Shown: positions 28,220-58,896 of the stretch, piece by piece | How the letters are laid out: the number at the start of each line of letters is the position of its first letter | Position numbering within the stretch: the first letter of the stretch is position 1 | From: Minisyncoccota bacterium | GTDB lineage: Bacteria > Patescibacteriota > Minisyncoccia > Phycocordibacterales > UBA1006 | NCBI GenBank assembly: GCA_036405175.1 | Contig: DASWYC010000002.1 | Span: 537,080-601,079 of the forward strand | Direction of reading: 5' to 3' | DNA: 64,000 nucleotides | The notes under the pieces: model-generated | What the model saw: only the letters and a program-made list of their open reading frames with translations | Database searches by the model: none | Told to the model about the DNA's origin: nothing | Position numbers and translations under genes: made by a program

Positions 28220-28588
28220 TTACGCTTTTTTCTTATCAAGCCTATCGAGGCCCAACCCTTTAAATACAAAATACACAACGGCGGCAATAATGGCAAAGTC
28301 TACCATCGTTGCGATAAAGCTTCCATACTTAAGCGTTGTGCCACCAATATTAATAACAAGCTCCTTAAGATCTCCTGCTCCCCCCAAGATAAGTCCAATG
28401 AGTGGATTAATCACATCATCAACCAATGAAGCAACGATCTTTGAAACAGCACCTCCCAAAATAAATCCAACCGCAAGTCCCACTACCCCCTGTTCTCTAA
28501 TAAAAGTGACAAATCCCTCAACACGTGATTTTGTTTCGTGTGAAACTTCAATGATTTCTTCTTTAAGCTCTTGTTTAAATTCTTCCAT
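28220..28588 (-). CDS. mscL: Large-conductance mechanosensitive channel MscL (with N-terminal extension)
   Basis: …GVVGLAVGFILGGAVSKIVASLVDDVINPLIGLILGG… matches the MscL TM1 and periplasmic loop pattern. 122 aa. Confidence 0.8.
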   Translation of the reverse strand: MEEFKQELKEEIIEVSHETKSRVEGFVTFIREQGVVGLAVGFILGGAVSKIVASLVDDVINPLIGLILGGAGDLKELVINIGGTTLKYGSFIATMVDFAIIAAVVYFVFKGLGLDRLDKKKA

Positions 28589-28854: not shown

Positions 28855-29208
28855 TTAGAGAATCTCAACAAAGTCTATCTCCGGTATACTGTTAATGATC
28901 TTTACACGAGCCGCCACAAACCTAACAGGGATACTAGGATATTGAGGAAAAACCTTTTGATAGTAGACGTGACGCATGCGTTCTACTTTTTGTGGATTAA
29001 CTGCAAAAAACGGATCATAGTCCATACTTCTCTCTTGGACAAGATGAGACTTCACCTCATACACATATATGTAGCGCCCCTTACGGCTCACAATGTCCAA
29101 TTCCCCACCTTTCCCGTAGATATTCCGGCCAATAATAACGTGTCCATTAGAGGTAAGTTCTTGAGCCACAACCTCTTCCGCATATTGTCCTTTATCACGC
29201 GTACTCAT
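28855..29208 (-). CDS. YraN/UPF0102-family endonuclease-like protein
   Basis: …GQYAEEVVAQELTSNGHVIIGRNIYGKGGELDIVSRKGRYIYVYEVK… matches the UPF0102 core. C-terminal extension. Confidence 0.6.
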   Translation of the reverse strand: MSTRDKGQYAEEVVAQELTSNGHVIIGRNIYGKGGELDIVSRKGRYIYVYEVKSHLVQERSMDYDPFFAVNPQKVERMRHVYYQKVFPQYPSIPVRFVAARVKIINSIPEIDFVEIL

Positions 29209-29347
29209 GTTTATATACTAGACTCTGTCCTTTTGAGAGTCTAATACTTTCTAACGAACATTTTTGTCATCCATATAGGACATATTGGTCATATTCTTAA
29301 AGGACATCTTAAAAGTTATCCCCAGTTTAGTATGGTTATACACTCAC

Positions 29348-29403
29348 TTATCCACACCACTTTCTCACTTTACCCTAAAAGTGGTGGATAAGTCTGTGGA
29401 TAG
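29348..29403. promoter_or_regulatory. Cluster of three DnaA-box-like 9-mers (ttatccaca; gtggataag; tgtggatag) ~29 kb from dnaA
   Basis: One perfect TTATCCACA and two 8/9 matches on alternating strands within 56 bp, in the yraN–tRNA-Gly spacer. Confidence 0.55.
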
Positions 29404-29515
29404 TGTGATTTTATCGGACAAAGAGGTGGTTTTAAAGGACATAAAAAGTGCTCGGGGGGTTCAAAAGAAAATGAGCTTTATTTTTTATAGCAAATAGCGT
29501 ATACTATTCTGCGTT

Positions 29516-29586
29516 GCGGGTATGGTCTAGTGGTAGAATGCGTCCTTGCCAAGGACGAGACAGGAGTTCGATTCTCCTTACCCGCA
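29516..29586 (+). tRNA. tRNA-Gly (anticodon GCC)
   Basis: Acceptor gcgggta/tacccgc; anticodon stem cgtcc/ggacg with loop ttgccaa; T-arm aggag-ttcgatt-ctcct. Confidence 0.9.
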
Positions 29587-29613
29587 CATTGAAAATAACA
29601 ATATTTTCAATAG

Positions 29614-29685
29614 GCACTTATGGTGAAATGGATATCACGACTGACTTCGGATCAGTTATTCTAGGTTCGAATCCTGGTAAGTGCA
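29614..29685 (+). tRNA. tRNA-Arg (anticodon UCG)
   Basis: Acceptor gcactta/taagtgc; D-arm gtga…tcac; anticodon stem actga/tcagt with loop cttcgga (G37); T-arm ctagg-ttcgaat-cctgg. Confidence 0.7.
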
Positions 29686-29744
29686 CCTGATTTACAATTA
29701 TCAACAGACTAAATCTTATTCCTATATACTCTAGGAAGAACACT

Positions 29745-31217
29745 ATGTTTACCCTTCCTCAAAAAATCAAAGAGCTTGCTCTCCTCTTTCATGCTCATAA
29801 TTATGAGCTTTTTCTCGTTGGTGGTTCAATCCGTGACCTTCTTATGGGTAAACAGCCTAAAGATTGGGACTTTACCACCAATATTTCACCTGAAATACTC
29901 TTAGAATTGGCAGAATCAGTAGGTATTCGAGCGGTTTACACCAACACCTTCGGTACTGTTTCGTACGTTTTTGAAGACGAAGCGCTTGATTCTCCTCTCC
30001 GCGAGCTTCAGATTACCCCATTCCGCTCAGAGTCTGGCTATAAAGATGGTCGTCACCCTACCCAAGTTTCATGGGCACAAACCGTAGAACAAGACCTTTC
30101 ACGTCGTGACTTCACCATTAACGCTATTGCCTATAATATTGCCGATGATACTTTAGTGGATCCATTTGGTGGACAAGCGGACATCAACGCTGGAATTCTT
30201 CGCACTGTCGGTAATCCAAAAGATCGTTTTACCGAGGATTACTTGCGTATCCTCCGCCTATTCCGCTTTAGCGCTACCCTATCATTCACCATTTCACGTG
30301 AAACATATGACGCCGTGGTGCCACTTGTGCCCAATATTGCTCAATTATCTCAAGAACGTATTCGTGATGAGTTCTTTAAAATCATTATGAGCCCTACCCC
30401 AGAGAAAGTGTTACACGAATTGCATGAAACAGGCATTCTCCAAATTTTCCTTCCCGAGCTTTCTGAGGGGTATGGATGTAGCCAATCACGCAGTCATATA
30501 TATGATGTGTTTACCCATAACATAAAAGCTCTGCAAAACGCTGCGGATAACAATTTTGTGTTACACGTGCGACTTGCCGCCTTATTCCACGATATTGGAA
30601 AACCTCGTACTAAGCGGTTTGATCAAGCTCAAAACCTTTATACTTTTTATGGACACGAAGTGGTGGGTGCTAAAATGTCCAATAAGATCCTTGTACGCCT
30701 TAAAGCGCCCTTAGATCTAACGGACACCGTAACCAAACTTGTTCGTTATCATATGTTTCTATCGGACACGGAAAAGGTAACTCATAGTGCAGCACGCCGC
30801 CTTGTCCGTAATGTAGGGAAGGAGCTTGTCTGGGATCTTATTGATGTCCGCAAGTGTGATCGCAAGGGAATGGGGAAGAGTGAAGAACCGGTGCGTCTCC
30901 GCCAGTTTGAAGTACTTATTGAAGAGGTGATTAGAGATCCAATTTCTGTAGCTCAGTTGGTTATTGGCGGTGATGACCTTATGAATACCCTTAAAATGAA
31001 GCCTGGTAAGCGTTTTGGATGGATTCTTCATGGACTTTTGGAGGAGGTGATTGAAGATCCGGCTCGCAATACTAAAGAATACCTTCTGCAAAGAGCAGGG
31101 GAGATGGAGCAATTATCAGACACCGAGCTCCAAAAAATAGGGGAGCAGGGCAAGGAAACCAAGGAAATAGCTGATCAGAAAGAGCGAGATATCATTAAAG
31201 AAAGCTATCGAGTATAA
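29745..31217 (+). CDS. cca: CCA-adding tRNA nucleotidyltransferase / poly(A) polymerase family protein with HD domain
   Basis: Pol-beta nucleotidyltransferase motif LVGGSIRDLLMGKQPKDWDFTT. HD segment …LFHDIGKP…. Confidence 0.85.
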   Translation: MFTLPQKIKELALLFHAHNYELFLVGGSIRDLLMGKQPKDWDFTTNISPEILLELAESVGIRAVYTNTFGTVSYVFEDEALDSPLRELQITPFRSESGYKDGRHPTQVSWAQTVEQDLSRRDFTINAIAYNIADDTLVDPFGGQADINAGILRTVGNPKDRFTEDYLRILRLFRFSATLSFTISRETYDAVVPLVPNIAQLSQERIRDEFFKIIMSPTPEKVLHELHETGILQIFLPELSEGYGCSQSRSHIYDVFTHNIKALQNAADNNFVLHVRLAALFHDIGKPRTKRFDQAQNLYTFYGHEVVGAKMSNKILVRLKAPLDLTDTVTKLVRYHMFLSDTEKVTHSAARRLVRNVGKELVWDLIDVRKCDRKGMGKSEEPVRLRQFEVLIEEVIRDPISVAQLVIGGDDLMNTLKMKPGKRFGWILHGLLEEVIEDPARNTKEYLLQRAGEMEQLSDTELQKIGEQGKETKEIADQKERDIIKESYRV

Positions 31218-31244
31218 GAAAAAGCCATATTTATATGCCTTTTT

Positions 31245-32033
31245 CTATGCTTTAAAGGTGATTTTGACGGGGCAATGGTCGGAACCCATGATGTCTGTTA
31301 GATGCTCACAGGCAATCACAGAAGGGAAGAGGCCTTGTGAAGCCAAGGCGTAATCAATGCGCCAACCCACGTTACGGGCTCGGGCAAAAGTTTTTTGATC
31401 CCAATAGGTGTAGGCGTCTAATTGTTCCTTGTGTAACACTCTAAAACAGTCCATATAACCAGTAGCCAACAGTGCATCAATCTTAGCTCGCTCAACAGGC
31501 AAGAACCCAACATTCTTTTCATTTTCTTTGGGACGCGCCAAGTCAATCTCGGTATGAGCAATATTTAAATCCCCCATGATTAAGCTTTTTGGATGTTCCA
31601 CAAGAAACTTTTTTTGCCATTCAATAAAAGCATCGTAAAAATCTAGTTTATACTGGAGTTTTTCAGGAACACCACCGCCTCCATTAGGGAAGTAGCCGTT
31701 AATCAATGAAAAGTCTTTGGTGTGAACCGTTAATAAACGCCCTTGTTCATCTAATGCCTGATGCGGAGCGGGGAATGACACTTCAGATAAGACAATAGGA
31801 ATTTTGCTATAAATTGCGGTTCCACTATAGCCTTTTTTATGAAGTGGACTATGGAATAATGCTGTATATCCTTCTCTTTGAAGAATCTCTGCAGTTAATT
31901 GTTCTTTATGAGCTTTAGTTTCTTGAATCAGCAATAAATCTGGTTGCTCATGAAACACCACATCAAGCGCACCTTTTGTTTGTGAAGCACGAATCCCATT
32001 CACATTCCACGAAATAATCGTATATTCTTTCAT
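31245..32033 (-). CDS. xth: Exodeoxyribonuclease III / AP endonuclease
   Basis: MKEYTIISWNVNGIRA…LLIQETK…MGDLNIAHTEIDL…SDHCPV are EEP-family motifs. Confidence 0.85.
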   Translation of the reverse strand: MKEYTIISWNVNGIRASQTKGALDVVFHEQPDLLLIQETKAHKEQLTAEILQREGYTALFHSPLHKKGYSGTAIYSKIPIVLSEVSFPAPHQALDEQGRLLTVHTKDFSLINGYFPNGGGGVPEKLQYKLDFYDAFIEWQKKFLVEHPKSLIMGDLNIAHTEIDLARPKENEKNVGFLPVERAKIDALLATGYMDCFRVLHKEQLDAYTYWDQKTFARARNVGWRIDYALASQGLFPSVIACEHLTDIMGSDHCPVKITFKA

Positions 32034-32069
32034 AGGTCTATCATACTATGAACATTCAATAATCTCACC

Positions 32070-32106
32070 TTGTACAAAAGCGCCTGACCGTACGGTCAGG
32101 CGCTTT
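32070..32106 (-). terminator. Terminator acaaaagcgcctgaccgtacggtcaggcgcttttgt
   Basis: 15-bp GC-rich stem flanked by A/T runs. Downstream of the methyltransferase gene. Confidence 0.7.
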
Positions 32107-32123
32107 TGTATCACGTGTACCAT

Positions 32124-32777
32124 TTACTTTCTCTGATATCCAATAAAATTTAACACCAATTGTTCGCCGGGATCAGTGCGTGAATCATAGGTTCGTTCCT
32201 CATGAAACACCTGATCAAAATGTTTTAAGAATCGATTTTTCAGGAAATGCTCAGAAAAGATTCTATGAGGCACACCAAATTTAATAAATTCTTGTGATTG
32301 CAATTCATCTTTGCGCGGACGATATCCATACAAACTCGTTGTTTTAATTGAATATCCAATATGCAAAAAGAATCCATTTGGTTTTATTACACGCTCAACC
32401 TCTTTAACAACTCTAAAAATTTCTTCATCACTTAAATACGTAAAAATACCACCATCACTTACGAGGTCAAAAGCTTCGTCAGTAAAAGGAATTTCGTCAG
32501 CAGATGCCTCAACAACACCAATATTCTTAATCTTTTCTTTCCTGATCTGTTCTTTGGTTTCACGAATAACTTGAGGATTTGTATCAATACCAAATAATTT
32601 ATGACGTGTATTCTTAAGCGGTAATAATGAAAGCGCGCGCCCAACACCTAATTCAAGAATATATGGATGTTCTCCCGGCATTGAATCAATATACTGTGCA
32701 ATTTCTTGATGATAGGGAATATGACTCCAGACATCTGATCCAGTTCTGTATACGTTTTCAAAATACGTACGTGACAT
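32124..32777 (-). CDS. Class I SAM-dependent methyltransferase (start probably the internal MSRTYFEN)
   Basis: Motif I LELGVGRALS and overall Rossmann MTase pattern. Confidence 0.6.
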   Translation of the reverse strand: MSRTYFENVYRTGSDVWSHIPYHQEIAQYIDSMPGEHPYILELGVGRALSLLPLKNTRHKLFGIDTNPQVIRETKEQIRKEKIKNIGVVEASADEIPFTDEAFDLVSDGGIFTYLSDEEIFRVVKEVERVIKPNGFFLHIGYSIKTTSLYGYRPRKDELQSQEFIKFGVPHRIFSEHFLKNRFLKHFDQVFHEERTYDSRTDPGEQLVLNFIGYQRK

Positions 32778-32900
32778 GATTCTATTGTACCTTACGTAAT
32801 ATATGATGTTACACATATATTCATCACACAAAAATCGCACCGTATTTTCTATATATAGTGCGATTTCTTTATATAATTCGTATACGTGTCATGTGAAACG

Positions 32901-33815
32901 TTACCGAGAGTGGAATTTTTTATGAATATCCATCAAATGTTTATCCGTAACGTGCGTATAAATTTGTGTTGTTCCAATATGCGCATGACCAAGCATCGCC
33001 TGTACACTTCTAAGATCCGCACCGTTCTCTAATAAGTTGGTTGCAAATGAATGTCTAAATACGTGCGGTGTTACGCGCTTTGAAATTCCTGCCTTCACGG
33101 CATAAAATGCAACGAGTCGCTCGATAGAACGTGGAGTTAATCGTCCTTCAATGGTTTTATTAAGTGTTCTATGTGAAACGTCTCTAAATAAGGGCTCGGC
33201 CATATCTTTGCGAGCTTTCAAATAGTTTTGAATCGCAGTACGCGCTTCATCAGACACAAATACCACTCTAATTTTTTCTCCTTTTCCTCTGATTGAAAAT
33301 TCTGAACGAGATAAATCCAAATCTCTGTTTAATGAACATAATTCTGAAACACGAAGGCCGGTAGAGTAGAGAAGTTCCAAAAGCGCACGATCACGTAACC
33401 CCTTTTCTTCTGAAAGATCTGGCGCATCCAAGATACGGGTTAATTCTTGAAAGGTAAGAAAATCAATATCACGCTCACCAACCTTAGCTAATTCAATCAT
33501 TTCAGGGCGCGCGGCAGAAATACCACGTTTCATAAGAAATTTGAGCAGCATTCTCAAGGCAATTAAATAGTAGTTTTGGGTCTTTTTCTTCATCGTATCC
33601 TGTGTTTGACCCTTTCTTGAAGCACCTTTTTTACGATTTAAAATCCCACGGAATGCACGAATCGATTCCTCGGTAATATCTTTGGTATTTTTAATATTCA
33701 TCGTAGCAATATATTCACGCAAATAGCGTTCATAGTTTTCAAGAGTTTTCAGGCTGCGACCCTTTTCGATCTCCAAATATTCAAGAAAACTGCGCAAAGC
33801 TTGATTAATATCCAT
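32901..33815 (-). CDS. Tyrosine site-specific recombinase XerC/XerD family
   Basis: C-terminal catalytic box …HVFRHSFATNLLENGADLRSVQAMLGHAHIGTTQIYTHV. 304 aa. Confidence 0.85.
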   Translation of the reverse strand: MDINQALRSFLEYLEIEKGRSLKTLENYERYLREYIATMNIKNTKDITEESIRAFRGILNRKKGASRKGQTQDTMKKKTQNYYLIALRMLLKFLMKRGISAARPEMIELAKVGERDIDFLTFQELTRILDAPDLSEEKGLRDRALLELLYSTGLRVSELCSLNRDLDLSRSEFSIRGKGEKIRVVFVSDEARTAIQNYLKARKDMAEPLFRDVSHRTLNKTIEGRLTPRSIERLVAFYAVKAGISKRVTPHVFRHSFATNLLENGADLRSVQAMLGHAHIGTTQIYTHVTDKHLMDIHKKFHSR

Positions 33816-33903
33816 ATTGGTAAGTATATCGTATTGTGCGACGTTCCTTATTTTGAGATTTTTCCCTTATTTCGTAAGGCTTTTACGGCTCCACAGAATT
33901 ACT

Positions 33904-33932
33904 TGACAAGCATATCTCAATATGCTATATTA
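33904..33932 (+). promoter_or_regulatory. Sigma-70-like promoter TTGACA-N17-TATATT upstream of rpsO
   Basis: Consensus -35 and near-consensus -10 with 17-bp spacer, read directly. Followed by a ~200-nt structured leader. Confidence 0.6.
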
Positions 33933-33939
33933 TATACGG

Positions 33940-34133
33940 CATGCACGGCTTAGGCGGAAGGTGGGAGTGCCTTCTAGAGTCTGTGCGCTATGTATACGAA
34001 ACCCTTGATCATAGAGATTGAGGGTTTTATTTATAACACCCTCTTATTATTAAGATCCTAAAGAATAATATCTGTTCCCATATTTATATTAACGGGCTTG
34101 CTTTTTTTTCAAGAATATGGTAGTATACTGGAT
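33940..34133 (+). promoter_or_regulatory. rpsO 5' leader with GC-rich hairpin (gcacgg…gaagg-tgggagtg-ccttc…ctgtgc) and terminator-like hairpin plus U-tract (aaaccct-N14-agggttt tattt)
   Basis: Inverted repeats seen directly. Located between the promoter and the rpsO ATG. Confidence 0.4.
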
Positions 34134-34400
34134 ATGCTAACTAAGCGAGTTAAGTCACAAGTAATCAAGAAATTCCAGGTTCATGACGCTGATACTGGTT
34201 CTGCAAAGTCACAAATTGGACTTTTGAGCCGCCGTATTGATGAACTTGCTCTTCACCTCAAGAAGCACGCTAAGGATCTTCACTCTCGAAGAGGACTTAT
34301 CGGACTTGTTGCCGACCGAAGAAAACATTTGAAATATCTTGAAAAAACCGATAAAAAAGGGTACGTAGCTCTCACTAAAGAACTCGGACTCAAAAAATAA
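34134..34400 (+). CDS. rpsO: 30S ribosomal protein S15 (start at MLTKRVK)
   Basis: …TGSAKSQIGLLSRRIDELALHLKKHAKDLHSRRGLIGLVADRRKHLKYL… is canonical S15. Confidence 0.9.
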   Translation: MLTKRVKSQVIKKFQVHDADTGSAKSQIGLLSRRIDELALHLKKHAKDLHSRRGLIGLVADRRKHLKYLEKTDKKGYVALTKELGLKK

Positions 34401-34425
34401 TACTCGCTCAGCGAGTATTATTTAT
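34397..34425 (+). terminator. Terminator aataatactcgctcagcgagtattatt after rpsO
   Basis: Perfect stem tactcgct/agcgagta with A/T flanks. Confidence 0.65.
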
Positions 34426-34556
34426 TAATCATATTTTTGAGGGACACGCGCACAACCGAGCGTTCATATTTACGCATCACAAATTTTGCGTTTCATATTT
34501 TCATCAGCCCTCACACAGACAATAAACCTTGTCTGATATACTTTTAACTAGTATTT

Positions 34557-35210
34557 ATGCTACAAACTCATGAACGCGTCGTTTTCTTAATTGACGCACA
34601 AAACTGTTATCACACAACTCAAAATCTCTATCATCGTAATCCAAACTTTTTGGGAATCATTAAAGAAATTCTTGGTGATCGCCATCTTTTACGTGCACTT
34701 GCATATGTAATTGCAACGGAAAAGGGGGACGAAACCGCATTTCTTGAAGCACTTTCTTCAAACGGTATTGAGCTCCGTAAAAAAGATCTTCAAGTCTTTT
34801 ACGACGGCGCCAAAAAAGGTGATTGGGATGTTGGAATGGCTATTGATGCGGTTATTCTTGCCGAAAAAGCTGACACTATTGTGTTGGTTACGGGAGATGG
34901 AGACTTCGTTCCACTCGTGGATTATCTTCGTCATAAAGGTGTTCGCGTTGAAATTGCATCATTTGTACAGCGCACCTCGCAAAAACTTGTTGATGCGTCG
35001 CACCGATTCTTTAATCTTTCAGAAGCACCATCAAAATTTGTGATTGGAGGATTGGGCAATAACGGCCGTAAACATGCCGCAAAACGCCCACGTGCAAAAG
35101 CAAACAATGCTAATAGTAATAGTGCAACAGGAAATACCACTCCGGCAGCACCAAAAAAGCAACAAGCGCCTGAACAGGTGAAGCTTACCAAAGCGAATAG
35201 TGTTAACTAA
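34557..35210 (+). CDS. NYN/LabA-like (PIN-related) domain protein with basic C-terminal tail
   Basis: …VFLIDAQN…DVGMAIDAVILAEKADTIVLVTGDGDFVPLVDYLRHKGVRV… matches the NYN/DUF88 core. Confidence 0.7.
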   Translation: MLQTHERVVFLIDAQNCYHTTQNLYHRNPNFLGIIKEILGDRHLLRALAYVIATEKGDETAFLEALSSNGIELRKKDLQVFYDGAKKGDWDVGMAIDAVILAEKADTIVLVTGDGDFVPLVDYLRHKGVRVEIASFVQRTSQKLVDASHRFFNLSEAPSKFVIGGLGNNGRKHAAKRPRAKANNANSNSATGNTTPAAPKKQQAPEQVKLTKANSVN

Positions 35211-35213
35211 TAT

Positions 35214-35241
35214 AAAAATCGCAGAGCAATCTGCGATTTTT
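35214..35241. terminator. Bidirectional terminator aaaaatcgcagagcaatctgcgattttt
   Basis: 9-bp stem with A/T flanks, between convergent genes. Confidence 0.7.
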
Positions 35242-35249
35242 ATATATTT

Positions 35250-36041
35250 CTAAAGAATAAAATCTTTTGAAAACTTTTTTGTATAGGCTTCAGCTTTTTT
35301 AATATTCCGTGAAATTCTTAGTTTGACTTTGTGATTTCCATTAACCAACTCTGTTACACGAGCAACCAATTCTTTTTCTGTATCCGATGTTTCATAAATG
35401 CCGTCCAAGTCTTCAGCAAAACCAACCGTAAATTGAGCTTCAAAAACATAATCACCCAACACATTCACATATTCATATGTAGGAATTTTATAATCAAGGC
35501 CCGTATTAATAGAAATAAAATCTGATCGATACTTCTTTGCAAACAACAAATCATTTTCTGTATCTTTTGCAACACTTACACATAACCTACGCTTATCTTG
35601 ATTAAATTTATTAAATACAGCCTCTTCACTTTCTTTATGGGCCACCATAAACCACTCGTGGGGATCGTAAATAAAAACTGGTCCGTTTGTTTCTGAATAT
35701 GCCTGCAAAAAGTAATGCGCCCAGATTCTGTCTGTCTCCAAAGGATTAAAGAACGAAAGTGCAATAGAATCACCCTCTTCAAGATGGTTTGGAAGAATAT
35801 TTGACGGAGAGAGGGAAGCAATGAGCTTTTCTTTCCATAAGTTATTTATAAGGAATTGGGTACCCTGTTTAAGCACCACCTTTTCTTCAATCAGATTGTT
35901 GAGGGATTTATACATTCCTTGTTTTGAGTATTTAGCTTGTTTATTTATTGAACCTAAAAGATCTTTTCCTGATTGAGGGGATATTTGAAGAAGCGTATCA
36001 ATAATAAGTTCTTTTAAATGTTCTGAGCGAAAGAGATTCAT
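35250..36041 (-). CDS. Putative wHTH transcriptional regulator (TrmB/MarR-like N-terminus + ~200-aa C-terminal domain), paralog 1
   Basis: N-terminal …SPQSGKDLLGSINKQAKYSKQGMYKSLNNLIEEKVV… Colinear similarity to ORF 37694-38491 over the full length, for example …KVKLRISRNIKK… versus …KFTLRIYKNSQK…. Confidence 0.5.
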   Translation of the reverse strand: MNLFRSEHLKELIIDTLLQISPQSGKDLLGSINKQAKYSKQGMYKSLNNLIEEKVVLKQGTQFLINNLWKEKLIASLSPSNILPNHLEEGDSIALSFFNPLETDRIWAHYFLQAYSETNGPVFIYDPHEWFMVAHKESEEAVFNKFNQDKRRLCVSVAKDTENDLLFAKKYRSDFISINTGLDYKIPTYEYVNVLGDYVFEAQFTVGFAEDLDGIYETSDTEKELVARVTELVNGNHKVKLRISRNIKKAEAYTKKFSKDFIL

Positions 36042-36146
36042 ATGTTATTAATAGTATAAACCAATGGTTTACTATTTTTATATTCACTACTCTTACTAAG
36101 CAGATCTACACATTTTTAAACTTTTTCTTTACAAAGTGACCAATAT

Positions 36147-36172
36147 TTGACTATTTACTGAAAGTATTGCAA
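36147..36172 (+). promoter_or_regulatory. Operator/promoter-like motif TTGACT-atttaCTGAAAGTATTGcaa upstream of the 36264 gene (copy 1 of 2)
   Basis: Near-identical motif at 38617-38643. Both lie in the divergent spacer next to a paralogous wHTH regulator. Confidence 0.55.
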
Positions 36173-36263
36173 ATATCAGATACAGTATCCTAGAAATCAT
36201 TTAAAAAACCTGTTTACTGGTTACCCTAAAATGGAAAACCTATGCTCATCCTACGCTTAAGAA

Positions 36264-36731
36264 ATGGATAGTAAACATAAACCATATACGAACATGTCAC
36301 TATTAATGTTTATCATTATCGCAGCCGTTATTCTTATCATTAGCGCATATTTCATTATTGGACAAATGTCTATGATGCCAAAGATCTACCCTGAGGCTAT
36401 TGCTAAGCATGGCGATATTGAGCAGCTCAACATCAAAAAGGACAGAATGGCAAGGATATTTTTTATCATAAGTATTATCTTTTTTATAATAGGCTTACCC
36501 ACGTACTTCTTGTTTGAAACTTTTGGTGCAATGGTACGCTCAGAAGCAGGGAGGGCTTCTCTTCTTGCACTAGAAGCATTGGGTTTTTCTATGTTCTACC
36601 TTATGGTTTACTTAAAAAATCTCCACGATGACGAAAAAGTCCTTACGAATGAGCCCGTTGATCTGAGCCAGATTCCCAATACTGCACCAGATTTTATAGA
36701 GGCTATTCCAGGGGCTTCTAACCTCACATAG
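36264..36731 (+). CDS. Hypothetical membrane protein (3 TM helices)
   Basis: Hydrophobic segments LLMFIIIAAVILIISAYFIIG, IFFIISIIFFIIGLPTYFLF, LLALEALGFSMFYLMVYL. Confidence 0.5.
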   Translation: MDSKHKPYTNMSLLMFIIIAAVILIISAYFIIGQMSMMPKIYPEAIAKHGDIEQLNIKKDRMARIFFIISIIFFIIGLPTYFLFETFGAMVRSEAGRASLLALEALGFSMFYLMVYLKNLHDDEKVLTNEPVDLSQIPNTAPDFIEAIPGASNLT

Positions 36732-36909
36732 AAGTCTTTAGCGTTTTTCACAATAAGAGTAATTATAATAATTACTCTTATTTTTTTATCCACCTTGGTA
36801 AACCTTTACTTTACAATCTATTAATTATTTACATATTTTAAGCAATTTTGTCAATAATCTACTAGAATGGTTCTTGAAGCAACTACCTGTTTCATTCAAA
36901 CCAAAAACT

Positions 36910-37680
36910 ATGAAAAAAGAACTTATCATCATTGTCGGAGCAAACGGAGAAATCGGAACTGAATATATCAACTCCTTAAAAACCAATTTGAATATTGAAA
37001 TACTTGCTGTTACACTTTCAAAACCTTATCACGATCCTTCAATTAACAATATTAGAGTTGACGTGCGAGATTATGAGGCGATTGAGCAGGCACTTGCTCA
37101 CATTAATTTACAAGACTACTTACGCGTTATTTATCTTCACTCTATTGGAACAGACGTATTTGAGTGGACTAACTACCCTCAAAAGCTTTATCGAAAAACT
37201 ATTCCGGAAAGCGTTTATGATTCAAACGTAAACACCTTTAAATATCTTTTACGATATTTATCAGAAAAGCTAAAGCGCACCAATACTGAACTTAAGGTGG
37301 TACAAATTGCCGGAGTTGCTGATAAATATGGATTTATGGTGATTGAATCGTTTCATGAGTGTAAAAAAATCACGAGAGCCTATGCGCGAGACCTTTGTGA
37401 TCTATATCCAAACATTTCAGGGCTTACAATTAATATCACCTCTTGTATCACCAAATCAGCATTGGAAGTGCGTCCTTTTGCGGATACTTCAAAGGGATGG
37501 CTTACACCTCAGGAAGTTGTATCTGAAAGTATTTCTTCAATACTAAGTAGCGAATGTGGATATCAAGAAATAAATATTCTCAAGCCGCTTCCCAGCTTTA
37601 ATCCTCAGGAATATTACGAGAATCAAGATCGTATATATGAAAAGTGGGCTAAAGAAATTGGAATCAAAAAAGCCATGTAA
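36910..37680 (+). CDS. NAD(P)-binding Rossmann-fold protein (SDR/epimerase-like)
   Basis: N-terminal IIIVGANGEIGTEY glycine-rich dinucleotide-binding motif. Confidence 0.5.
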   Translation: MKKELIIIVGANGEIGTEYINSLKTNLNIEILAVTLSKPYHDPSINNIRVDVRDYEAIEQALAHINLQDYLRVIYLHSIGTDVFEWTNYPQKLYRKTIPESVYDSNVNTFKYLLRYLSEKLKRTNTELKVVQIAGVADKYGFMVIESFHECKKITRAYARDLCDLYPNISGLTINITSCITKSALEVRPFADTSKGWLTPQEVVSESISSILSSECGYQEINILKPLPSFNPQEYYENQDRIYEKWAKEIGIKKAM

Positions 37681-37697
37681 TTTCATGGCTTTTTTAT
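37666..37697. terminator. Bidirectional terminator aaaaaagccatgtaatttcatggctttttt
   Basis: Stem gccatg…catggc with A/T flanks, between convergent genes. Confidence 0.65.
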
Positions 37698-38491
37698 ATA
37701 ATTTCTTTTTTAATTCTTTTCCAAATTTTCTGTTGTTTTTGAGAGTTTTTGTAAATACGGAGCGTAAACTTTGAAGGATTATCAATTACCCTATTAACAA
37801 TATCTCTTGGTGTACCAGATTCAAAAAAATCAGTCATCATATCCATCCACTGTGAATCATATGTAGTCTCAATCATATAATCATCAAACAAGTTAAACCC
37901 TACATATTTATCAAGCTTTTCGTCAAACACCACCTGCACACCCAGAGATCTAATTTCCGAGATATCAGCCATCATGGTGTCATTAATAGCAGGAAGAGAG
38001 ACCCAAACGATCGAGTATCCAAAACTTTGCAAGTGCTTGATAAAAAGTGTTGCCTGTTCTTTTGAGTACCGGAAATACATTGAATACGGCTCAAACAAAC
38101 AATAATATCGCTTTTCTTTCTGAGACTTTTTTAAAAGGAAAGCTGCATTGTCCCAAAAGTTATTAAGATCCTTAAAAGTTTCAAATACGAATGACACCTT
38201 GGAGGTGTCTTTAATTTCCGGTAAAAACGCAAGAGTAGCATCATCCTTATAATAAGTTTTAGTGAGTGCTAGGTAATATTCTCGAATACGAGCAATAAAT
38301 AATGCAGAAATAGCTAATATTTTTGCATTTTCGATAATTACTTCTTTATCCTTAAGCTTATTAATAATCTTATAAACACCCTGAGGAGTCATGGAAAGCT
38401 TTTTTGAAATATCAGAAATAAGTTTCTTTTTTATAATTGGTCCTTTTTCGAGTAGCTCAATTACTTCTTTTTCTGGAGAATCAAACACCAT
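37694..38491 (-). CDS. Putative wHTH transcriptional regulator, paralog 2
   Basis: N-terminal …ISKKLSMTPQGVYKIINKLKDKEVI… Colinear similarity to ORF 35250-36041. Confidence 0.5.
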   Translation of the reverse strand: MVFDSPEKEVIELLEKGPIIKKKLISDISKKLSMTPQGVYKIINKLKDKEVIIENAKILAISALFIARIREYYLALTKTYYKDDATLAFLPEIKDTSKVSFVFETFKDLNNFWDNAAFLLKKSQKEKRYYCLFEPYSMYFRYSKEQATLFIKHLQSFGYSIVWVSLPAINDTMMADISEIRSLGVQVVFDEKLDKYVGFNLFDDYMIETTYDSQWMDMMTDFFESGTPRDIVNRVIDNPSKFTLRIYKNSQKQQKIWKRIKKEII

Positions 38492-38616
38492 ATTGAAATT
38501 AGTGTATCATATTTTAAACTCAATGTTTATTTTTTTAATTAAAACTACCCCATACACCACATTAAATGCAAAATTTGTTTATTTTTAAACTATTTATTTA
38601 AAATGGTGCTGTATTA

Positions 38617-38643
38617 TTGACTTTTTCTGAAAGTATTGTGACT
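38617..38643 (+). promoter_or_regulatory. Operator/promoter-like motif TTGACT-ttttCTGAAAGTATTGtga upstream of the 38698 gene (copy 2 of 2)
   Basis: Matches 36147-36172. Followed by tatact -10-like hexamer at 38651. Confidence 0.55.
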
Positions 38644-38697
38644 TTAAACTATACTGTTCTCAGATAAATTATTTACAAACCAAAAACATTTAAAAAT

Positions 38698-39168
38698 ATG
38701 AAAAATATATTAGTATACGGACAAAGAAACAGCTTCATTGAAAATGACCTTAATACAGGCTGGACTATATATGGCAATGTATCAGTTTTTGCAGCCTACA
38801 AAGGCATGCATCTATCAGAAGAAGGTGGCTTTGGTGAGAATGAAGTACAAATAGAGTTCTCTCAAAAAATGTCATCACACCTCTCGCTATCATTATTGAT
38901 CATGCTTCAAGAATATTCTCATTTATTCGACAAAGTATATGTTTATCTTGATGGGGTAAGGTATACAACACTCATTGATGAGTTACAATTCCGCAATATC
39001 CCAGCAGATAAAGTTATATTCTTTATTATGCCCGACAAACAGTCTACACTTAAGAAAGAACAGTATCTGGAGGAGCGTGGGTATGGAAAGTCTGAAATAA
39101 TTGATTGTGACTCGTGTGCGGTGGAAGAAATAGGAATACTTATAAACAATTTTAAAAAGGAGGTATAA
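38698..39168 (+). CDS. Hypothetical protein (156 aa)
   Basis: Clean ORF. Operator motif upstream, strong terminator downstream. No recognisable motif. Confidence 0.5.
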   Translation: MKNILVYGQRNSFIENDLNTGWTIYGNVSVFAAYKGMHLSEEGGFGENEVQIEFSQKMSSHLSLSLLIMLQEYSHLFDKVYVYLDGVRYTTLIDELQFRNIPADKVIFFIMPDKQSTLKKEQYLEERGYGKSEIIDCDSCAVEEIGILINNFKKEV

Positions 39169-39186
39169 AATGAGAAATTTTATTAG

Positions 39187-39213
39187 AGGACAACCCTGGT
39201 TGTCCTTTTTTTA
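39187..39213 (+). terminator. Terminator aggacaaccctggttgtccttttttt
   Basis: Stem ggacaacc/ggttgtcc plus T7. Confidence 0.75.
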
Positions 39214-39338
39214 TACCCTAACCTCAAATATGATATAGTGCACTCATACAAGTAATGATTGTCTTTTCACGGAATTTGCTTTGGCCTCATAATCATATGA
39301 ACCAGCCGAGTGCGTACGTGAGGAGATAATCTATAAAT

Positions 39339-41549: not shown

Positions 41550-41554
41550 ATTTA

Positions 41555-41582
41555 TTAAAGCTCCACATATGTGGAGCTTTAA
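41555..41582 (+). terminator. Terminator ttaaagctccacatatgtggagctttaa after pnp
   Basis: 11-bp stem. Confidence 0.7.
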
Positions 41583-41623
41583 TTTTCTAAACAGATTATT
41601 GCAAGTGCTTTTAAGGTCTTCTC

Positions 41624-41734
41624 AAATCTCTATCATCAAGCAGTCGCGCAGCGGCTGATAATGAGCACATGGTGCGAATATATCAGACCGCGAGCGTAGG
41701 CCCGGTAGAGGCCGCTGCGCGATGATAGAGATTT
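41624..41734. repeat. Structured repeat element copy D (short subtype), downstream of the pnp terminator, at the centre of palindrome aaatctctatcatc|gatgatagagattt
   Basis: Core cagtcgcgcagcggctgataatgagcacatggtgcgaatatatcagaccgcgagcgtaggcccggtagaggccgctgcgc. Inner 10-bp stem gcgcagcggc/gccgctgcgc. Outer stem 14 bp. Confidence 0.85.
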
Positions 41735-41757
41735 AATATGAGCTATAATAAAACCAC

Positions 41758-43113: not shown

Positions 43114-43136
43114 CCAAAAAATTGGTTATTTTTTAC
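43107..43136 (+). terminator. Terminator aaaataaccaaaaaattggttatttttt
   Basis: Stem taaccaa/ttggtta with T-run. Confidence 0.55.
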
Positions 43137-43239
43137 TTTACGTGGATTATTATTGAGCGCTAAGCTGTATCTGGAATCAGTTATTGGTCCACCATGTTTC
43201 CACTTGACTTACCGTCCTAGGTTGCTACAATCACCCCTA

Positions 43240-43542
43240 ATGACAGCTAAACCAAACCCTAAGGGTACTCAAGGAAAAATGACTCGAGAAGAGTTTTTTC
43301 AACGACTTTTAAAGGAAAAAAAGGAGATTGAGGCCTTGATGGCACATTATGGACACAAGACTGATGGGGGAGAATGGGTAAGCAATGTTACTGAAGAAAA
43401 CAGTGGATCTGAGGGTGATGATGCCGATCAAGCTGACCAGTTTGAAACTGAGGCAAAAAATGCGACCATTCTTGCAACCCTTGAGGAACGCCTTGTGCAA
43501 GTTAACGCAAAAATCAAGGAGTTTGAATCATCCGCTAAATAA
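43240..43542 (+). CDS. Small acidic coiled-coil protein (DksA-like tip motif DDADQAD, no zinc finger), hypothetical
   Basis: ORF immediately upstream of the comM-like gene. Helical, acidic. Start at MTAKPN (alternatively MTREEF). Confidence 0.4.
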   Translation: MTAKPNPKGTQGKMTREEFFQRLLKEKKEIEALMAHYGHKTDGGEWVSNVTEENSGSEGDDADQADQFETEAKNATILATLEERLVQVNAKIKEFESSAK

Positions 43543-43545
43543 TTA

Positions 43546-45078: not shown

Positions 45079-45103
45079 CGTGAGTAATTTTTGATTAAAA
45101 AAT

Positions 45104-45130
45104 ATAGCCAGAATTATTCTGGCTTTTTAT
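45104..45130 (+). terminator. Terminator atagccagaattattctggctttttat after comM-like gene
   Basis: Stem agccagaat/attctggct plus T-run. Confidence 0.7.
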
Positions 45131-45135
45131 ATTCC

Positions 45136-45254
45136 AAACACTTCTTGTGGAGCAGTCGCGCAGTGGCTGATACGAGCGCCATTGCGTAGCTTTGGCGCGA
45201 CCATATCAGACCACGAGCGTAGGGTCGTAGCCCGCTGCGACACAAGAAGTGTTT
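45136..45254. repeat. Structured repeat element copy E (long subtype), between convergent comM-like and M23 peptidase genes, at the centre of palindrome aaacacttcttgtg|cacaagaagtgttt
   Basis: Core gagcagtcgcgcagtggctgatacgagcgccattgcgtagctttggcgcgaccatatcagaccacgagcgtagggtcgtagcccgctgcga. Outer stem is a perfect 14-bp inverted repeat. Confidence 0.85.
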
Positions 45255-45255
45255 A

Positions 45256-50927: not shown

Positions 50928-50964
50928 TCTACGACAAGAGCGTGAGCTAAAAACTCTGATATAC

Positions 50965-52326: not shown

Positions 52327-52327
52327 T

Positions 52328-56971: not shown

Positions 56972-57295
56972 AGTTGTATATTACTGCTTTTTAAAAATAA
57001 ATAAAAGTAATAGCAATAGATAACAGTAAGGTTTGTGGATTTTGTGAATAACTCGAAAAGTGCCTTAAATTTAAGGAAGTTTGATGACTTTTGACTGGGG
57101 AAATGCAAGGAATAACTCGGGGAATTATTATAGGAAAACATGGGGAGAATATGTGAATAGTATACCCGTGGGGGAAAACCGAACGTTATCCTGGGGTTAT
57201 TGATAGGTTATCCTGAAGGAAATCCACGCATAATCCCCAGTTATTTGGGGAAACTGGGGATGAGACACTTGAATAAGTGTATATGAATATATGTA
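56972..57295. promoter_or_regulatory. dnaA–dnaN intergenic region with DnaA-box-like sites and ≥7 iterated TGGGGA(A) motifs: candidate oriC module
   Basis: tgtggattt, atccacgc, ttatcctgg, ttatcctga. G4 tracts at ~57097, 57118, 57142, 57170, 57193, 57247, 57256 on one strand plus one inverted copy (taatcccca). Confidence 0.55.
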
Positions 57296-58681: not shown

Positions 58682-58896
58682 AGTTGAATACTATTATACG
58701 TGGATACAATTTTGTGCAAAACCAACAACCATACTACAGGTTATCCACAAAAAGTTGTAAAGACTGTGGAGAAATAGGAAAATAAGGGGAAAGACCTGTG
58801 GATTAGTGTGGATAACTTTGGGGATTAGATGTTGAATAGATGAAGGTCCTAAAAACTCTTGCAAAATAGGCCGAACTTTGATAGTATTTCTGTACT
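58682..58896. promoter_or_regulatory. dnaA upstream / rpmH upstream region with DnaA-box cluster (2 perfect + 3 imperfect) and candidate rpmH promoter TTGCAA-N17-TAGTAT
   Basis: ttatccaca at 58741-58749 and tgtggataa at 58807-58815 are perfect. cgtggatac, ctgtggaga and tgtggatta are imperfect. -35/-10-like hexamers at 58859-58887. Confidence 0.6.

What the first reader, a model, noticed from the sequence alone, without database searches (positions are those of the whole stretch)
29348..29403. DnaA-box cluster ~29 kb away from dnaA/oriC
Three sites lie within 56 bp, in the spacer between the yraN-like gene and a tRNA cluster: TTATCCACA (perfect), cTTATCCACc and cTATCCACA on the opposite strand. 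The arrangement resembles DnaA-titration or regulatory loci (datA/DARS-like), or a DnaA-regulated promoter.
Basis: partly seen in the sequence, partly recalled or inferred. Interest (0 to 1): 0.5.

Follow-up and report, generated by a model that had tools for sequence, protein, structure and literature searches.

The report
DnaA-box array inside the chromosome's centromere
The reported DnaA boxes are real and conserved: they are this genome's enlarged copy of a non-coding module, found across Paceibacterota (candidate phyla radiation bacteria), that puts a binding site for the replication initiator DnaA in the middle of the parS "centromere" cluster, 28 kb from the replication origin.

Summary
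The three boxes belong to an array of five, at 29316-29403: three point one way and two the other. A density of 4 boxes (at most 1 mismatch) per 100 bp arose in 0 of 300 simulations. It occurs only here and upstream of dnaA.

The boxes are under selection. Against a relative whose CCA enzyme is 71% identical, box positions are 87% identical and the rest of the spacer is 46%.

In 62 unique loci from distant Paceibacterota, a consensus box (TGTGGATAA or TGGGGATAA) lies upstream of yraN, always in the same orientation. It sits in a conserved DNA module of about 260 bp that also holds TAAAGGACA-type repeats and canonical parS sites. The window has parS-like sites at 28532, 29882, 30290 and 32107.

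The module is not an RNA: there is no Rfam hit, no consensus fold and no compensatory change. In this genome it is not the origin. Third-codon GC skew switches at dnaA/dnaN (57 kb) and not at 29.3 kb.

My best reading is a non-origin DnaA docking or sink site at the centromere. This resembles the DnaA sites at the Caulobacter centromere more than E. coli datA or DARS. The mechanism is inferred, not shown.

The parts
29316..29324 (+). DnaA box TTATCCCCA. It reads TGGGGATAA on the yraN sense strand and is the homologue of the strong box conserved across the clade.
   Evidence: Its flanks, AAAC..CT, match the consensus AAAAC-TG(T/G)GGATAA-CT of 56 relatives. It reads TTATCCACA in L001.
29336..29344 (+). 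Weak DnaA-box-like site TTATACACT.
   Evidence: Read. Eight of the nine positions are unchanged in L013 and L001. It has one mismatch to the relaxed consensus TTWTNCACA, which I quote from memory.
29348..29356 (+). Perfect DnaA box TTATCCACA.
   Evidence: Identical in L013 and L001.
29383..29391 (-). DnaA box TTATCCACC, in inverted orientation.
   Evidence: It reads TTATCCACT in L013 and TTATCCACA in L001.
29395..29403 (-). DnaA box CTATCCACA, in inverted orientation.
   Evidence: Kept in L013 and lost in L001, where it reads TGTTTATAA on the + strand.
29298..29306 (+). TAAAGGACA motif, the copy on the left of the boxes.
   Evidence: The same motif family flanks the box in relatives.
29433..29441 (+). 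TAAAGGACA motif, the copy on the right of the boxes. It is a direct repeat of 29298-29306, 135 bp away.
29216..29246 (.). Palindrome TACTAGACTCT-N9-AGAGTCTAATA with TGTCCTTTT across its loop. It overlaps the tentative yraN promoter (TAGACT-N17-TAGTAT on the - strand) and occupies the place that a parS site holds in typical relatives.
   Evidence: inverted repeat I2. The promoter was read by eye and matches only 8 of 12 consensus positions, so it is tentative.
28532..28547 (.). parS-like site TGTTTCGTGTGAAACT (3 mismatches), inside mscL.
   Evidence: Counterparts at the same position in L013 and L001.
29882..29897 (.). parS-like site TATTTCACCTGAAATA (3 mismatches), inside the CCA-enzyme gene.
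   Evidence: L013 has TGTTTCAGGTGAAACA (1 mismatch) at the same place.
30290..30305 (.). parS-like site CATTTCACGTGAAACA (2 mismatches; the central 14 bp are perfect), inside the CCA-enzyme gene.
32107..32122 (.). parS-like site TGTATCACGTGTACCA (3 mismatches), intergenic.
28855..29208 (-). yraN (UPF0102 nuclease), the gene the module is found next to in every locus examined.
29516..29687 (+). tRNA-Gly(GCC) and tRNA-Arg(TCG), transcribed away from the boxes. The likely -10 element is TATACT at 29500-29505.
   Evidence: The promoter block is conserved in L013 and L001.
56972..57295 (-). For reference: the dnaA-dnaN spacer, the likely oriC. It has tandem boxes TTATTCACA-AAATCCACA beside an AT-rich stretch.
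   Evidence: Relatives carry box-box-TAG/TAA-trio modules in this spacer.
58741..58815 (.). For reference: the four-box cluster between dnaA and rpmH.

Best explanation
The boxes form a five-site DnaA-binding array. This array is the lineage-specific, amplified form of a conserved non-coding DNA module of Paceibacterota, which lies between the tRNA-Gly/tRNA-Arg-cca genes and yraN.

In typical relatives the module contains, in fixed order and orientation:
- one consensus DnaA box;
- a weaker box 21 bp away;
- four TAAAGGACA/TGTCCTTTA sites for an unknown factor;
- an AT-rich stretch;
- one or two canonical parS sites, with more parS sites inside the flanking cca and yraN genes.

The module therefore sits at the centre of the chromosome's ParB-loading (centromere) region, close to the origin but separate from it. 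The origin is at dnaA-dnaN.

Proposed mechanism (inferred): DnaA occupies these high-affinity sites beside the ParB-parS complex. The locus is copied soon after initiation, so it doubles a local DnaA sink. It also places DnaA where ParB and ParA act, which would link initiation to segregation, as reported for DnaA at the Caulobacter centromere. With 3-4 strong boxes in both orientations instead of one, the window's clade would hold more DnaA, so a sink role is more plausible here than in typical relatives.

Shown: the sites, their clustering, their conservation, their co-location with parS, and that the locus is neither an RNA nor the skew-defined origin. Inferred: that DnaA and ParB bind, and what follows from that.
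For: - Clustering beyond chance.
- Footprint within the clade: box positions 39/45 identical to L001 against 120/262 for the rest of the spacer, and 43/45 against 212/262 for L013. L001 has three perfect boxes with the same spacing: 31 and 34 bp, against 32 and 35 bp here.
- Conservation across Paceibacterota: 70 of the 80 metagenome yraN loci carry TG[TG]GGATAA on the yraN sense strand within 450 bp upstream (five of the ten without it have under 180 bp of upstream sequence). Every box with at most 1 mismatch that matches this motif is in that orientation. Perfect-box density is 1.66/kb upstream against 0.062/kb elsewhere. The invariant alignment columns spell TG.GGATAA....G........G...ATAA..GAC.
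- parS: all 62 unique loci have a parS (at most 2 mismatches) within 800 bp of the box, at 1.68/kb against 0.052/kb elsewhere. Three dnaA loci have none with at most 2 mismatches. The window has 5 parS-like sites against 0.44 expected, 0 of 100 shuffles reaching that, and 4 of them lie at 28.5-32.1 kb. The parS consensus string TGTTNCACGTGAAACA occurs in the ParB literature.
- Not the origin: GC3 skew is negative on both gene strands over 1-56.9 kb and positive over 57-64 kb. There is no change at the module in the window, L001 or L013.
- TTATCCCCA also occurs upstream of dnaA in L102, so that variant is used at a known DnaA target.
- Precedent: DnaA binds directly at the Caulobacter parS centromere (Mera et al. 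2014, as cited in PMC11151105). There parS is 8 kb from ori (PMC6667618).
Against: - There is no binding data for DnaA or ParB.
- No ParB gene was found in the 64-kb window or the fetched loci; this was only a regular-expression search for the GERR motif. The rest of the roughly 668-kb genome was not available.
- Typical relatives have only one strong box, which is poor for a sink. Fixed orientation and spacing suit a structured complex or a transcriptional role better than plain titration.
- The window's own parS-like sites carry 2-3 mismatches, and the parS next to yraN has been replaced by a different palindrome.
- Pooled +-3 kb flanks in typical genomes show a skew step of origin polarity that this explanation does not account for.
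Confidence: 0.5

Rival explanations
1. DnaA-dependent transcriptional control. DnaA bound at the array activates or represses yraN (a transformation D-loop nuclease) and/or the divergent tRNA-Gly-tRNA-Arg-cca unit. Alternatively, it acts as an orientation-dependent roadblock to read-through from the upstream tRNA.
For: - In every locus examined the box lies next to yraN, in one orientation, 89-260 bp from its start codon. The caveat is that these loci were retrieved by searching with YraN.
- In typical loci the box follows a tRNA and a terminator-like hairpin, CTTAT-N3-5-ATAAGGATTTT.
- DnaA is an established transcription factor in E. coli and B. subtilis (my own knowledge; PMC11317965 abstract).
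- YraN acts in natural transformation together with ComM (bioRxiv 10.1101/2024.02.06.579203).
Against: - The boxes lie about 70-190 bp upstream of both candidate promoters in the window, and roughly 130 bp or more upstream of the yraN-proximal TAAAAT element in typical loci (my own reading). They overlap no -35 or -10 element.
- The whole 170-bp stretch is conserved, including spacers, which is more than an operator needs.
- The promoter scan gave only weak hits.
Confidence: 0.25
2. The module is a replication origin: either the ancestral or actual oriC of typical Paceibacterota, or a second origin, with the dnaA-proximal boxes serving only autoregulation.
For: - It combines a DnaA box, a weak box, an AT-rich stretch and adjacent parS sites.
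- Flanking genes diverge from it.
- Pooled +-3 kb flanks of 28 loci show GC skew of -0.124 on the left and +0.039 on the right, with right greater than left in 27 of 28. GC3 skew also shifts within each gene strand.
- L002 shows a step in per-gene GC3 skew.
Against: - In the window, L001 and L013 the skew keeps one sign across the module and switches at dnaA-dnaN.
- In +-10 kb flanks of three typical genomes, per-gene GC3 skew shows no consistent sign change; L098 and L099 stay mostly negative on both sides.
- The dnaA-dnaN spacers of typical relatives carry the box-box-TAG/TAA-trio-AT-rich arrangement described for bacterial origins, for example GTAATCCACATATCCACAAGTATAGTAGTAATAATAATG (PMC8287927). 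No such trio run adjoins the yraN box.
- The pooled flanks are dominated by two gene families: cca on the left and an M23/LysM peptidase on the right.
Confidence: 0.07
3. The 9-mers are bound by some other protein, or are part of a larger site for the factor that recognises TAAAGGACA, and only resemble DnaA boxes.
For: - Conservation extends well beyond the 9-mer, over the block TGTGGATAACTATGTTAGTAATGTTTATAAAGGACA.
- A quarter of the loci carry TGGGGATAA, which departs from the classical consensus at a core position.
Against: - The conserved core is the canonical box. The same perfect 9-mer occurs twice upstream of dnaA in this genome.
- The window clade multiplied the 9-mer itself, in both orientations, without the flanking block.
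- TTATCCCCA is also found upstream of dnaA in L102.
- This genome's DnaA has a normal C-terminal DNA-binding domain (Pfam Bac_DnaA_C, E = 5e-27).
Confidence: 0.08
4. The element is a structured RNA, or a small protein-coding gene, transcribed from the spacer.
For: - Inverted repeats are present: TGTCCTTTA...TAAAGGACA in relatives, and CACCACTTT/AAAGTGGTG here.
- A 70-codon ORF lies at 29285-29497.
Against: - There is no Rfam match beyond tRNAs, apart from one sub-threshold chance hit overlapping a tRNA.
- RNAalifold finds 0 consensus pairs in 56 sequences.
- Changes in the repeat arms break pairing 33:5 and 37:5, with only 1 and 2 compensatory cells.
- The window's extra palindrome is not kept in L013.
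- The ORF has no Pfam hit. L013 has 22- and 24-nt insertions within it.
Confidence: 0.02

Closest known systems
DnaA-binding sites in the Caulobacter crescentus parS centromere region (Mera, Kalogeraki and Shapiro 2014)
   Same: Initiator-binding sites lie inside the ParB/parS centromere, a few to tens of kb from the origin and separate from it. The proposed role is to link initiation with segregation.
   Different: Here the evidence is sequence only. The module is conserved across a whole candidate-phyla-radiation lineage and has a fixed architecture with an extra repeated motif (TAAAGGACA). I could not read the Caulobacter paper itself; I rely on its citation in PMC11151105.
Bacillus subtilis DnaA-box clusters outside oriC (DBCs)
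   Same: They are intergenic clusters of consensus boxes, near the origin but outside it, in a genome whose oriC is at dnaA-dnaN. They are thought to sequester DnaA and/or regulate neighbouring genes. This description is from my own knowledge.
   Different: I know of no association of DBCs with parS. DBCs are not conserved as a sequence module across a phylum-level group. Typical relatives here have one strong box rather than a cluster.
E. coli datA
   Same: It is a non-origin cluster of high-affinity DnaA boxes next to a tRNA-Gly(GCC) gene. In MG1655, four box-like sites lie within 250 bp just downstream of glyVXY. That this region is datA is from my own knowledge.
   Different: datA works through IHF-dependent hydrolysis of DnaA-bound ATP and is confined to enterobacteria and their relatives. 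No IHF site or IHF gene was seen here (the window encodes HU). There is no sequence homology, and the tRNA-Gly adjacency is probably coincidence.
E. coli DARS1/DARS2
   Same: They are small clusters that include oppositely oriented DnaA boxes, located away from oriC.
   Different: DARS is defined functionally, by release of ADP from DnaA, and DARS2 needs IHF and Fis. None of this can be tested here, and I know of no link to parS.
oriC basal unwinding system (tandem DnaA boxes plus DnaA-trios)
   Same: A strong box followed by a weaker box in the same orientation, with AT-rich DNA nearby.
   Different: The boxes are 21 bp apart centre to centre rather than adjacent. No run of TAG/TAA trios follows them. 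There is no skew switch here. The dnaA-dnaN spacers of the same lineage do carry that system (PMC8287927).

Membership tests
Chromosomal replication origin (oriC) | A cluster of DnaA boxes | tested here: met
   Five box-like sites at 29316-29403.
Chromosomal replication origin (oriC) | Strand-composition (GC-skew) switch of origin polarity at the site | tested here: not met
   GC3 skew is negative on both gene strands on both sides of 29.3 kb. The switch is at about 57 kb, and the same holds in L001 and L013. In typical relatives the result is inconclusive.
Chromosomal replication origin (oriC) | Adjacent unwinding module: tandem boxes, then DnaA-trios (TAG/TAA repeats), then an AT-rich element | tested here: not met
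   Read by eye: no trio run next to any of the boxes. Relatives' dnaA-dnaN spacers do have one.
Non-origin DnaA-box cluster (general class: datA, DARS, B. subtilis DBCs) | Several boxes at or near consensus, closely spaced, outside oriC, and more than chance would give | tested here: met
   Conserved in relatives.
Non-origin DnaA-box cluster (general class: datA, DARS, B. subtilis DBCs) | Bound by DnaA in vivo or in vitro | not testable with these tools
   Needs ChIP-seq, DAP-seq or EMSA.
E. coli datA | An IHF-binding site among the boxes, and IHF-dependent stimulation of hydrolysis of DnaA-bound ATP | not tested
   I ran no scan for the IHF consensus. The only nucleoid protein seen in the window is HU. 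The biochemistry cannot be tested here.
E. coli DARS | A core of three boxes in a defined arrangement that promotes release of ADP from DnaA | not testable with these tools
   The definition is functional. Oppositely oriented boxes exist here, but that is not diagnostic.
parS centromere region | 16-bp palindromes matching TGTTNCACGTGAAACA, clustered | tested here: met
   Relatives: perfect or near-perfect sites in all 62 unique loci, 32-fold enriched near the box. Window: four sites with 2-3 mismatches at 28.5-32.1 kb, and 5 in total against 0.44 expected.
parS centromere region | Located near the origin | tested here: met
   About 25-29 kb from dnaA-dnaN, in a source contig reported as 667,975 bp.
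parS centromere region | A ParB protein encoded in the genome and binding the sites | tested here: inconclusive
   No ORF with the ParB GERR motif in the window or the fetched loci.
DnaA-regulated promoter | A box overlapping or immediately next to the -35/-10 elements or the transcription start | tested here: inconclusive
   The candidate promoters are weak consensus matches: TATACT at 29500-29505, and a tentative TAGACT-N17-TAGTAT at 29243-29215 on the - strand. The scan hit at 29436-29408 (-) is also weak. The boxes lie about 70-190 bp from the first two, and no transcription start sites are known.
Structured non-coding RNA | A conserved secondary structure supported by covariation | tested here: not met

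The most novel reading that the evidence does not exclude
Paceibacterota, and perhaps candidate phyla radiation bacteria more widely, have a composite centromere in which a consensus DnaA box, sites for an unidentified TAAAGGACA-binding factor and parS are held in fixed geometry. That would make recruitment of DnaA to the centromere an ancient, widespread way of coupling replication initiation to chromosome segregation, rather than a peculiarity of Caulobacter. A bolder variant is that the module is a second or ancestral origin, which the window's clade gave up in favour of dnaA-dnaN.
Probability: 0.3. Interest if true: 0.75.

Novelty: new variant of a known kind. Interest (0 to 1): 0.6.

Why it matters
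Non-origin DnaA-box loci that control initiation have been worked out mainly in a few model bacteria. A direct link between DnaA and the centromere rests, to my knowledge, mostly on Caulobacter.

Here, sequence alone identifies a DnaA-box module that sits inside the parS cluster and is conserved in 62 unique loci of an uncultivated, reduced-genome lineage. It comes with a second, unassigned DNA motif.

The module gives three things:
- a concrete, testable target for how these small-genome bacteria coordinate replication and segregation;
- a practical landmark (parS plus DnaA box plus yraN) for orienting and checking assemblies of these genomes from metagenomes;
- a natural comparison between one-box lineages and the multi-box lineage of this window.

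Tried and rejected
- **Chance.** Rejected by cluster simulations and by conservation.
- **Hairpin or palindrome as the selected feature.** The CACCACTTT/AAAGTGGTG extension around boxes 2 and 3 is not kept in L013, while the boxes are.
- **Known RNA family.** Only tRNAs were found, apart from one sub-threshold chance hit.
- **New structured RNA.** RNAalifold gave 0 pairs, and arm changes are not compensatory.
- **Small ORF at 29285-29497.** No Pfam hit, and L013 has insertions within it.
- **Box 2 overlapping a yraN -10 element.** I first read TGTGGATAA-N7-TATAA(C/A/T) as a promoter. The wider alignment showed that the 'TATAA' is part of a second, weak DnaA box (TGT[TG]NATAA), so I dropped this.
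- **Strong box doubling as a -35 element (TGGATA-N17-TATAAA).** Rejected. The putative -10 lacks the final T and begins with C in many loci, and the spacer is conserved as strongly as the hexamers.
- **Origin at the module.** I followed this furthest: pooled skew, +-10 kb flanks of three genomes and dnaA loci of three genomes. It is contradicted for the window clade and inconclusive, leaning negative, for typical genomes.
- **Finding the source contig beyond the window.** The 668-kb NCBI record could not be reached. Only short Logan contigs of the same organism were returned.
- **Literature.** A search on origins or DnaA boxes in Patescibacteria found nothing relevant, and one on ParB in candidate phyla radiation bacteria found nothing either. 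Two papers could not be opened: Livny et al. 2007 and Mera et al. 2014.

Full report
**1. What is in the window**

The window comes from a candidate phyla radiation (CPR) bacterium of the Paceibacterota. Its YraN and DnaA are identical to proteins that NCBI lists from a "MAG TPA: Candidatus Paceibacterota bacterium" on a 667,975-bp contig.

The finding lies in the 307-bp spacer between two units:
- yraN (28855-29208, minus strand; Pfam UPF0102);
- a divergent unit of tRNA-Gly(GCC) at 29516, tRNA-Arg(TCG) at 29614 and a CCA-adding enzyme gene at 29745-31217.

All three reported sites are present at the stated coordinates. The array is larger than reported:
- TTATCCCCA at 29316 (+);
- a weak TTATACACT at 29336 (+);
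- TTATCCACA at 29348 (+);
- TTATCCACC at 29383 (-);
- CTATCCACA at 29395 (-).

Two perfect copies of TAAAGGACA, at 29298 and 29433, bracket the boxes.

**2. More than chance**

Box-like 9-mers taken singly are not enriched in the window: 24 against 19 expected. Clusters are. Four boxes within 100 bp occurred in 0 of 300 second-order Markov simulations, and the window has exactly two such clusters, this one and 58741-58815 upstream of dnaA. Perfect boxes number 3 against 0.63 expected, and all three lie in these two clusters.

**3. Where the origin is**

- dnaA (57296-58681, -) and dnaN (55865-56971, -) are followed on the other side by rpmH, rnpA, yidD and yidC.
- The dnaA-dnaN spacer has tandem boxes (TTATTCACA-AAATCCACA) next to an AT-rich stretch.
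- Third-codon GC skew, measured separately for genes on each strand, is negative from 1 to 56.9 kb and positive from 57 to 64 kb. It does not change sign at 29.3 kb. A contig of the same organism extends the pattern 3.9 kb further.
- In three more distant Paceibacterota, the dnaA-dnaN spacer carries tandem boxes followed by TAG/TAA trios and AT-rich DNA. That is the arrangement described for bacterial origins (PMC8287927).

The origin of this group is therefore at dnaA-dnaN, and the 29.3-kb array is a separate element.

**4. Conservation in close relatives**

L013-L016 are one species, with YraN 85% identical to the window's. They keep all five sites, while the spacer beyond box 4 has diverged and carries indels.

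L001 (CCA enzyme 71% identical, same gene order) has three perfect boxes with the same orientations and spacings: 31 and 34 bp, against 32 and 35 bp here. Against L001, box positions are 39/45 identical and the rest of the spacer 120/262.

The extra palindrome around boxes 2 and 3 is not conserved. The boxes are.

**5. Conservation across the lineage**

A metagenome scan with a YraN alignment returned 80 loci with YraN 28-44% identical.
- 70 of the 80 loci carry TG[TG]GGATAA on the yraN sense strand within 450 bp upstream of the match. Five of the ten without it have under 180 bp of upstream sequence.
- The box lies 89-260 bp before the yraN start codon.
- Perfect-box density is 1.66/kb upstream against 0.062/kb elsewhere in the same loci.

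Anchoring on the box shows a conserved module of about 260 bp. Read on the yraN sense strand, it runs:
1. the 3' end of a tRNA;
2. TGTCCTTTA;
3. a small hairpin ending in ATAAGGATTTT;
4. AAAAC-TGTGGATAA-CTATGTTAGTAA-TGTTTATAA-AGGACAT;
5. TTGTCTTTTA;
6. an AT-rich stretch, ...AAAATATGTTGnAAAATAAGGATATTTT...;
7. TAAAAGACAT;
8. GTTTCACGTGAAAC;
9. yraN.

The second site, TGT[TG]NATAA, is a weak DnaA box 21 bp from the first. By its flanks (AAAC...CT), the window's box at 29316 is the homologue of the conserved strong box. The other boxes are additions made in the window's clade.

Gene order is also conserved: cca(-), two tRNAs, the module, yraN(+). The tRNA pair flips between lineages.

**6. It is DNA, not RNA or protein-coding**

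- Rfam finds only tRNAs, apart from one sub-threshold hit overlapping a tRNA.
- RNAalifold predicts no consensus pair in 56 sequences.
- Changes in the TGTCCTTTA/TAAAGGACA and TGTCTTTTA/TAAAAGACA arms break pairing 33:5 and 37:5, with 1 and 2 compensatory cells.
- Conservation shows no three-base periodicity that I could see.
- The local 70-codon ORF has no family match, and L013 has 22- and 24-nt insertions within it.

**7. The parS connection**

The palindrome next to the box is the canonical ParB site, TGTTNCACGTGAAACA. That consensus string occurs in the ParB literature, for example PMC7022226.
- Every one of 62 unique loci has at least one parS (at most 2 mismatches) within 800 bp of the box: 1.68/kb against 0.052/kb elsewhere.
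- The sites fall in three places: between the box and yraN, inside yraN, and inside the 5' part of cca.
- L002 has seven parS-like sites in 1.3 kb, and L097-L099 have five or six each in about 1 kb.
- Three dnaA loci have none with at most 2 mismatches.
- Two cca loci from other Patescibacteria, L004 and L005, have no parS-like site and no DnaA-box cluster.

In the window, 5 parS-like sites (at most 3 mismatches) occur against 0.44 expected, with 0 of 100 shuffles reaching that. Four lie at 28532, 29882, 30290 and 32107, around the array. Three of these are positionally conserved in L013 and L001.

So the DnaA-box module sits in the centre of the chromosome's centromere-like region, which is near the origin as parS clusters usually are (PMC7333895).

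**8. How it most likely works**

*Shown:* the sites, their clustering, their selection, their fixed geometry, their co-location with parS, and that the locus is neither the skew-defined origin nor an RNA.

*Inferred:* DnaA binds the boxes. The same perfect 9-mer is used upstream of dnaA, and this genome's DnaA has a normal DNA-binding domain. ParB binds the parS sites. The locus then holds DnaA at the centromere.

Two consequences are plausible:
- a DnaA sink that doubles soon after initiation;
- coupling of initiation to ParA/ParB-driven segregation, as proposed for DnaA bound at the Caulobacter centromere (cited in PMC11151105).

The window's clade has 3-4 strong boxes in both orientations where typical relatives have one strong and one weak box. 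A sink role is therefore more credible here.

A transcriptional role is the main rival. YraN is a transformation D-loop nuclease that works with ComM. However, the boxes lie about 70-190 bp from both candidate promoters, so simple occlusion is unlikely.

**9. The origin alternative**

Pooled +-3 kb flanks of 28 typical loci show a skew step of origin polarity, and the flanking genes diverge from the module. Against this:
- the flanks are dominated by two gene families;
- +-10 kb flanks of three genomes show no consistent GC3 sign change;
- origin-type modules sit at dnaA-dnaN in the same lineage;
- the window clade shows no step at all.

I rate this reading at about 7% and list the step as unexplained.

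**10. Comparison with known systems, and verdict**

The locus belongs to the general class of non-origin DnaA-box clusters. It is closest in logic to the DnaA sites at the Caulobacter centromere and to the B. subtilis DnaA-box clusters.

It is not demonstrably datA or DARS, whose defining features are biochemical. The adjacency to tRNA-Gly(GCC), which E. coli datA shares, is probably coincidence.

What seems new is the conservation across Paceibacterota of a fixed composite of DnaA box, TAAAGGACA repeats and parS. Two literature searches found no description of it.

Verdict: a real, conserved element that is more interesting than first proposed. Its mechanism remains unproven.

Noticed in passing
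window 28532-28547, 29882-29897, 30290-30305, 32107-32122, 49169-49184; L002:4680-5996; L097:9177-10219: There is a cluster of parS (ParB-binding) palindromes around the yraN-tRNA-cca locus, several of them inside coding sequences. They identify this locus as the chromosome's centromere-like region.
   Followed up: yes
window 29186, 29226, 29274, 29298, 29433; L097:8918, 8950, 9753, 9832: A repeated motif, TAAAGGACA/TGTCCTTTA (and TAAAAGACA/TGTCTTTTA), flanks the DnaA box in all relatives and recurs 32 bp apart inside the cca gene. It does not cluster at the dnaA loci (none within 4 kb of dnaA). What binds it is unknown.
   Followed up: partly
window 28855-45200, compared with L097-L099: Typical relatives have the order cca(-)...module...yraN(+)-Zip-M23 peptidase(-)-UvrD(+). 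In the window, M23 (45256-46266, -) and UvrD (46556-48523, +) instead follow the PNPase end of the block, so the segment from yraN to PNPase looks inverted in this clade. The segment's GC3 skew already fits its present orientation.
   Followed up: partly
window 38698-55460 and 61002-63973; L100-L102: Genes on both sides of dnaA/dnaN point towards it (RuvB, RuvC, a penicillin-binding protein and a type II secretion ATPase on one side; type IV secretion genes on the other). They are therefore head-on to forks leaving the skew-defined origin. The same convergent layout is seen in three distant relatives.
   Followed up: no
L017-L096, flanks of the module (pooled): There is a GC-skew step of origin polarity across the module in 27 of 28 typical loci (left -0.124, right +0.039). 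It is not reproduced cleanly in +-10 kb per-gene GC3 profiles. It may come from gene composition or may be real.
   Followed up: partly
window 56972-57295; L100:11345-11600; L102:11345-11600: Relatives have textbook origin modules in the dnaA-dnaN spacer: tandem boxes, then TAG/TAA trios, then AT-rich DNA. The window keeps the tandem boxes and the AT-rich stretch, but its trio run is poor.
   Followed up: partly
window 29516-29687; L097:9440-9745; L099:9450-9760; L002:5443-5913: The tRNA-Gly(GCC)/tRNA-Arg(TCG) pair beside the module is flipped or reordered between lineages, as if the pair inverts repeatedly. The window is unusual in having both tRNAs transcribed away from the boxes.
   Followed up: partly
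L054:2917-2930, L097:9943-9956 and equivalent positions in relatives; window 29216-29246: In typical relatives a parS site sits where the -35 region of the yraN promoter should be, so ParB could repress this transformation nuclease. In the window that parS is replaced by a different palindrome (TAGACTCT...AGAGTCTA). ParB is reported to modulate competence in S. pneumoniae (PMC4488948, title seen).
   Followed up: no
L103 (E. coli MG1655 4392677-4392926): Four DnaA-box-like sites lie directly downstream of glyVXY, the tRNA-Gly(GCC) genes. From memory this is the datA position, and it mirrors the tRNA-Gly adjacency of the Paceibacterota box. This is probably coincidence.
   Followed up: partly
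window 61002-63973; L104:47-6848: Type IV secretion-like genes (TraG-type ATPase and others) lie next to the dnaA-rpmH-yidC block here and in L100-L102. A 2025 paper on the Patescibacteria type IV secretion system also mentions the origin of replication (PMC12102498, listed); I did not read it.
   Followed up: no
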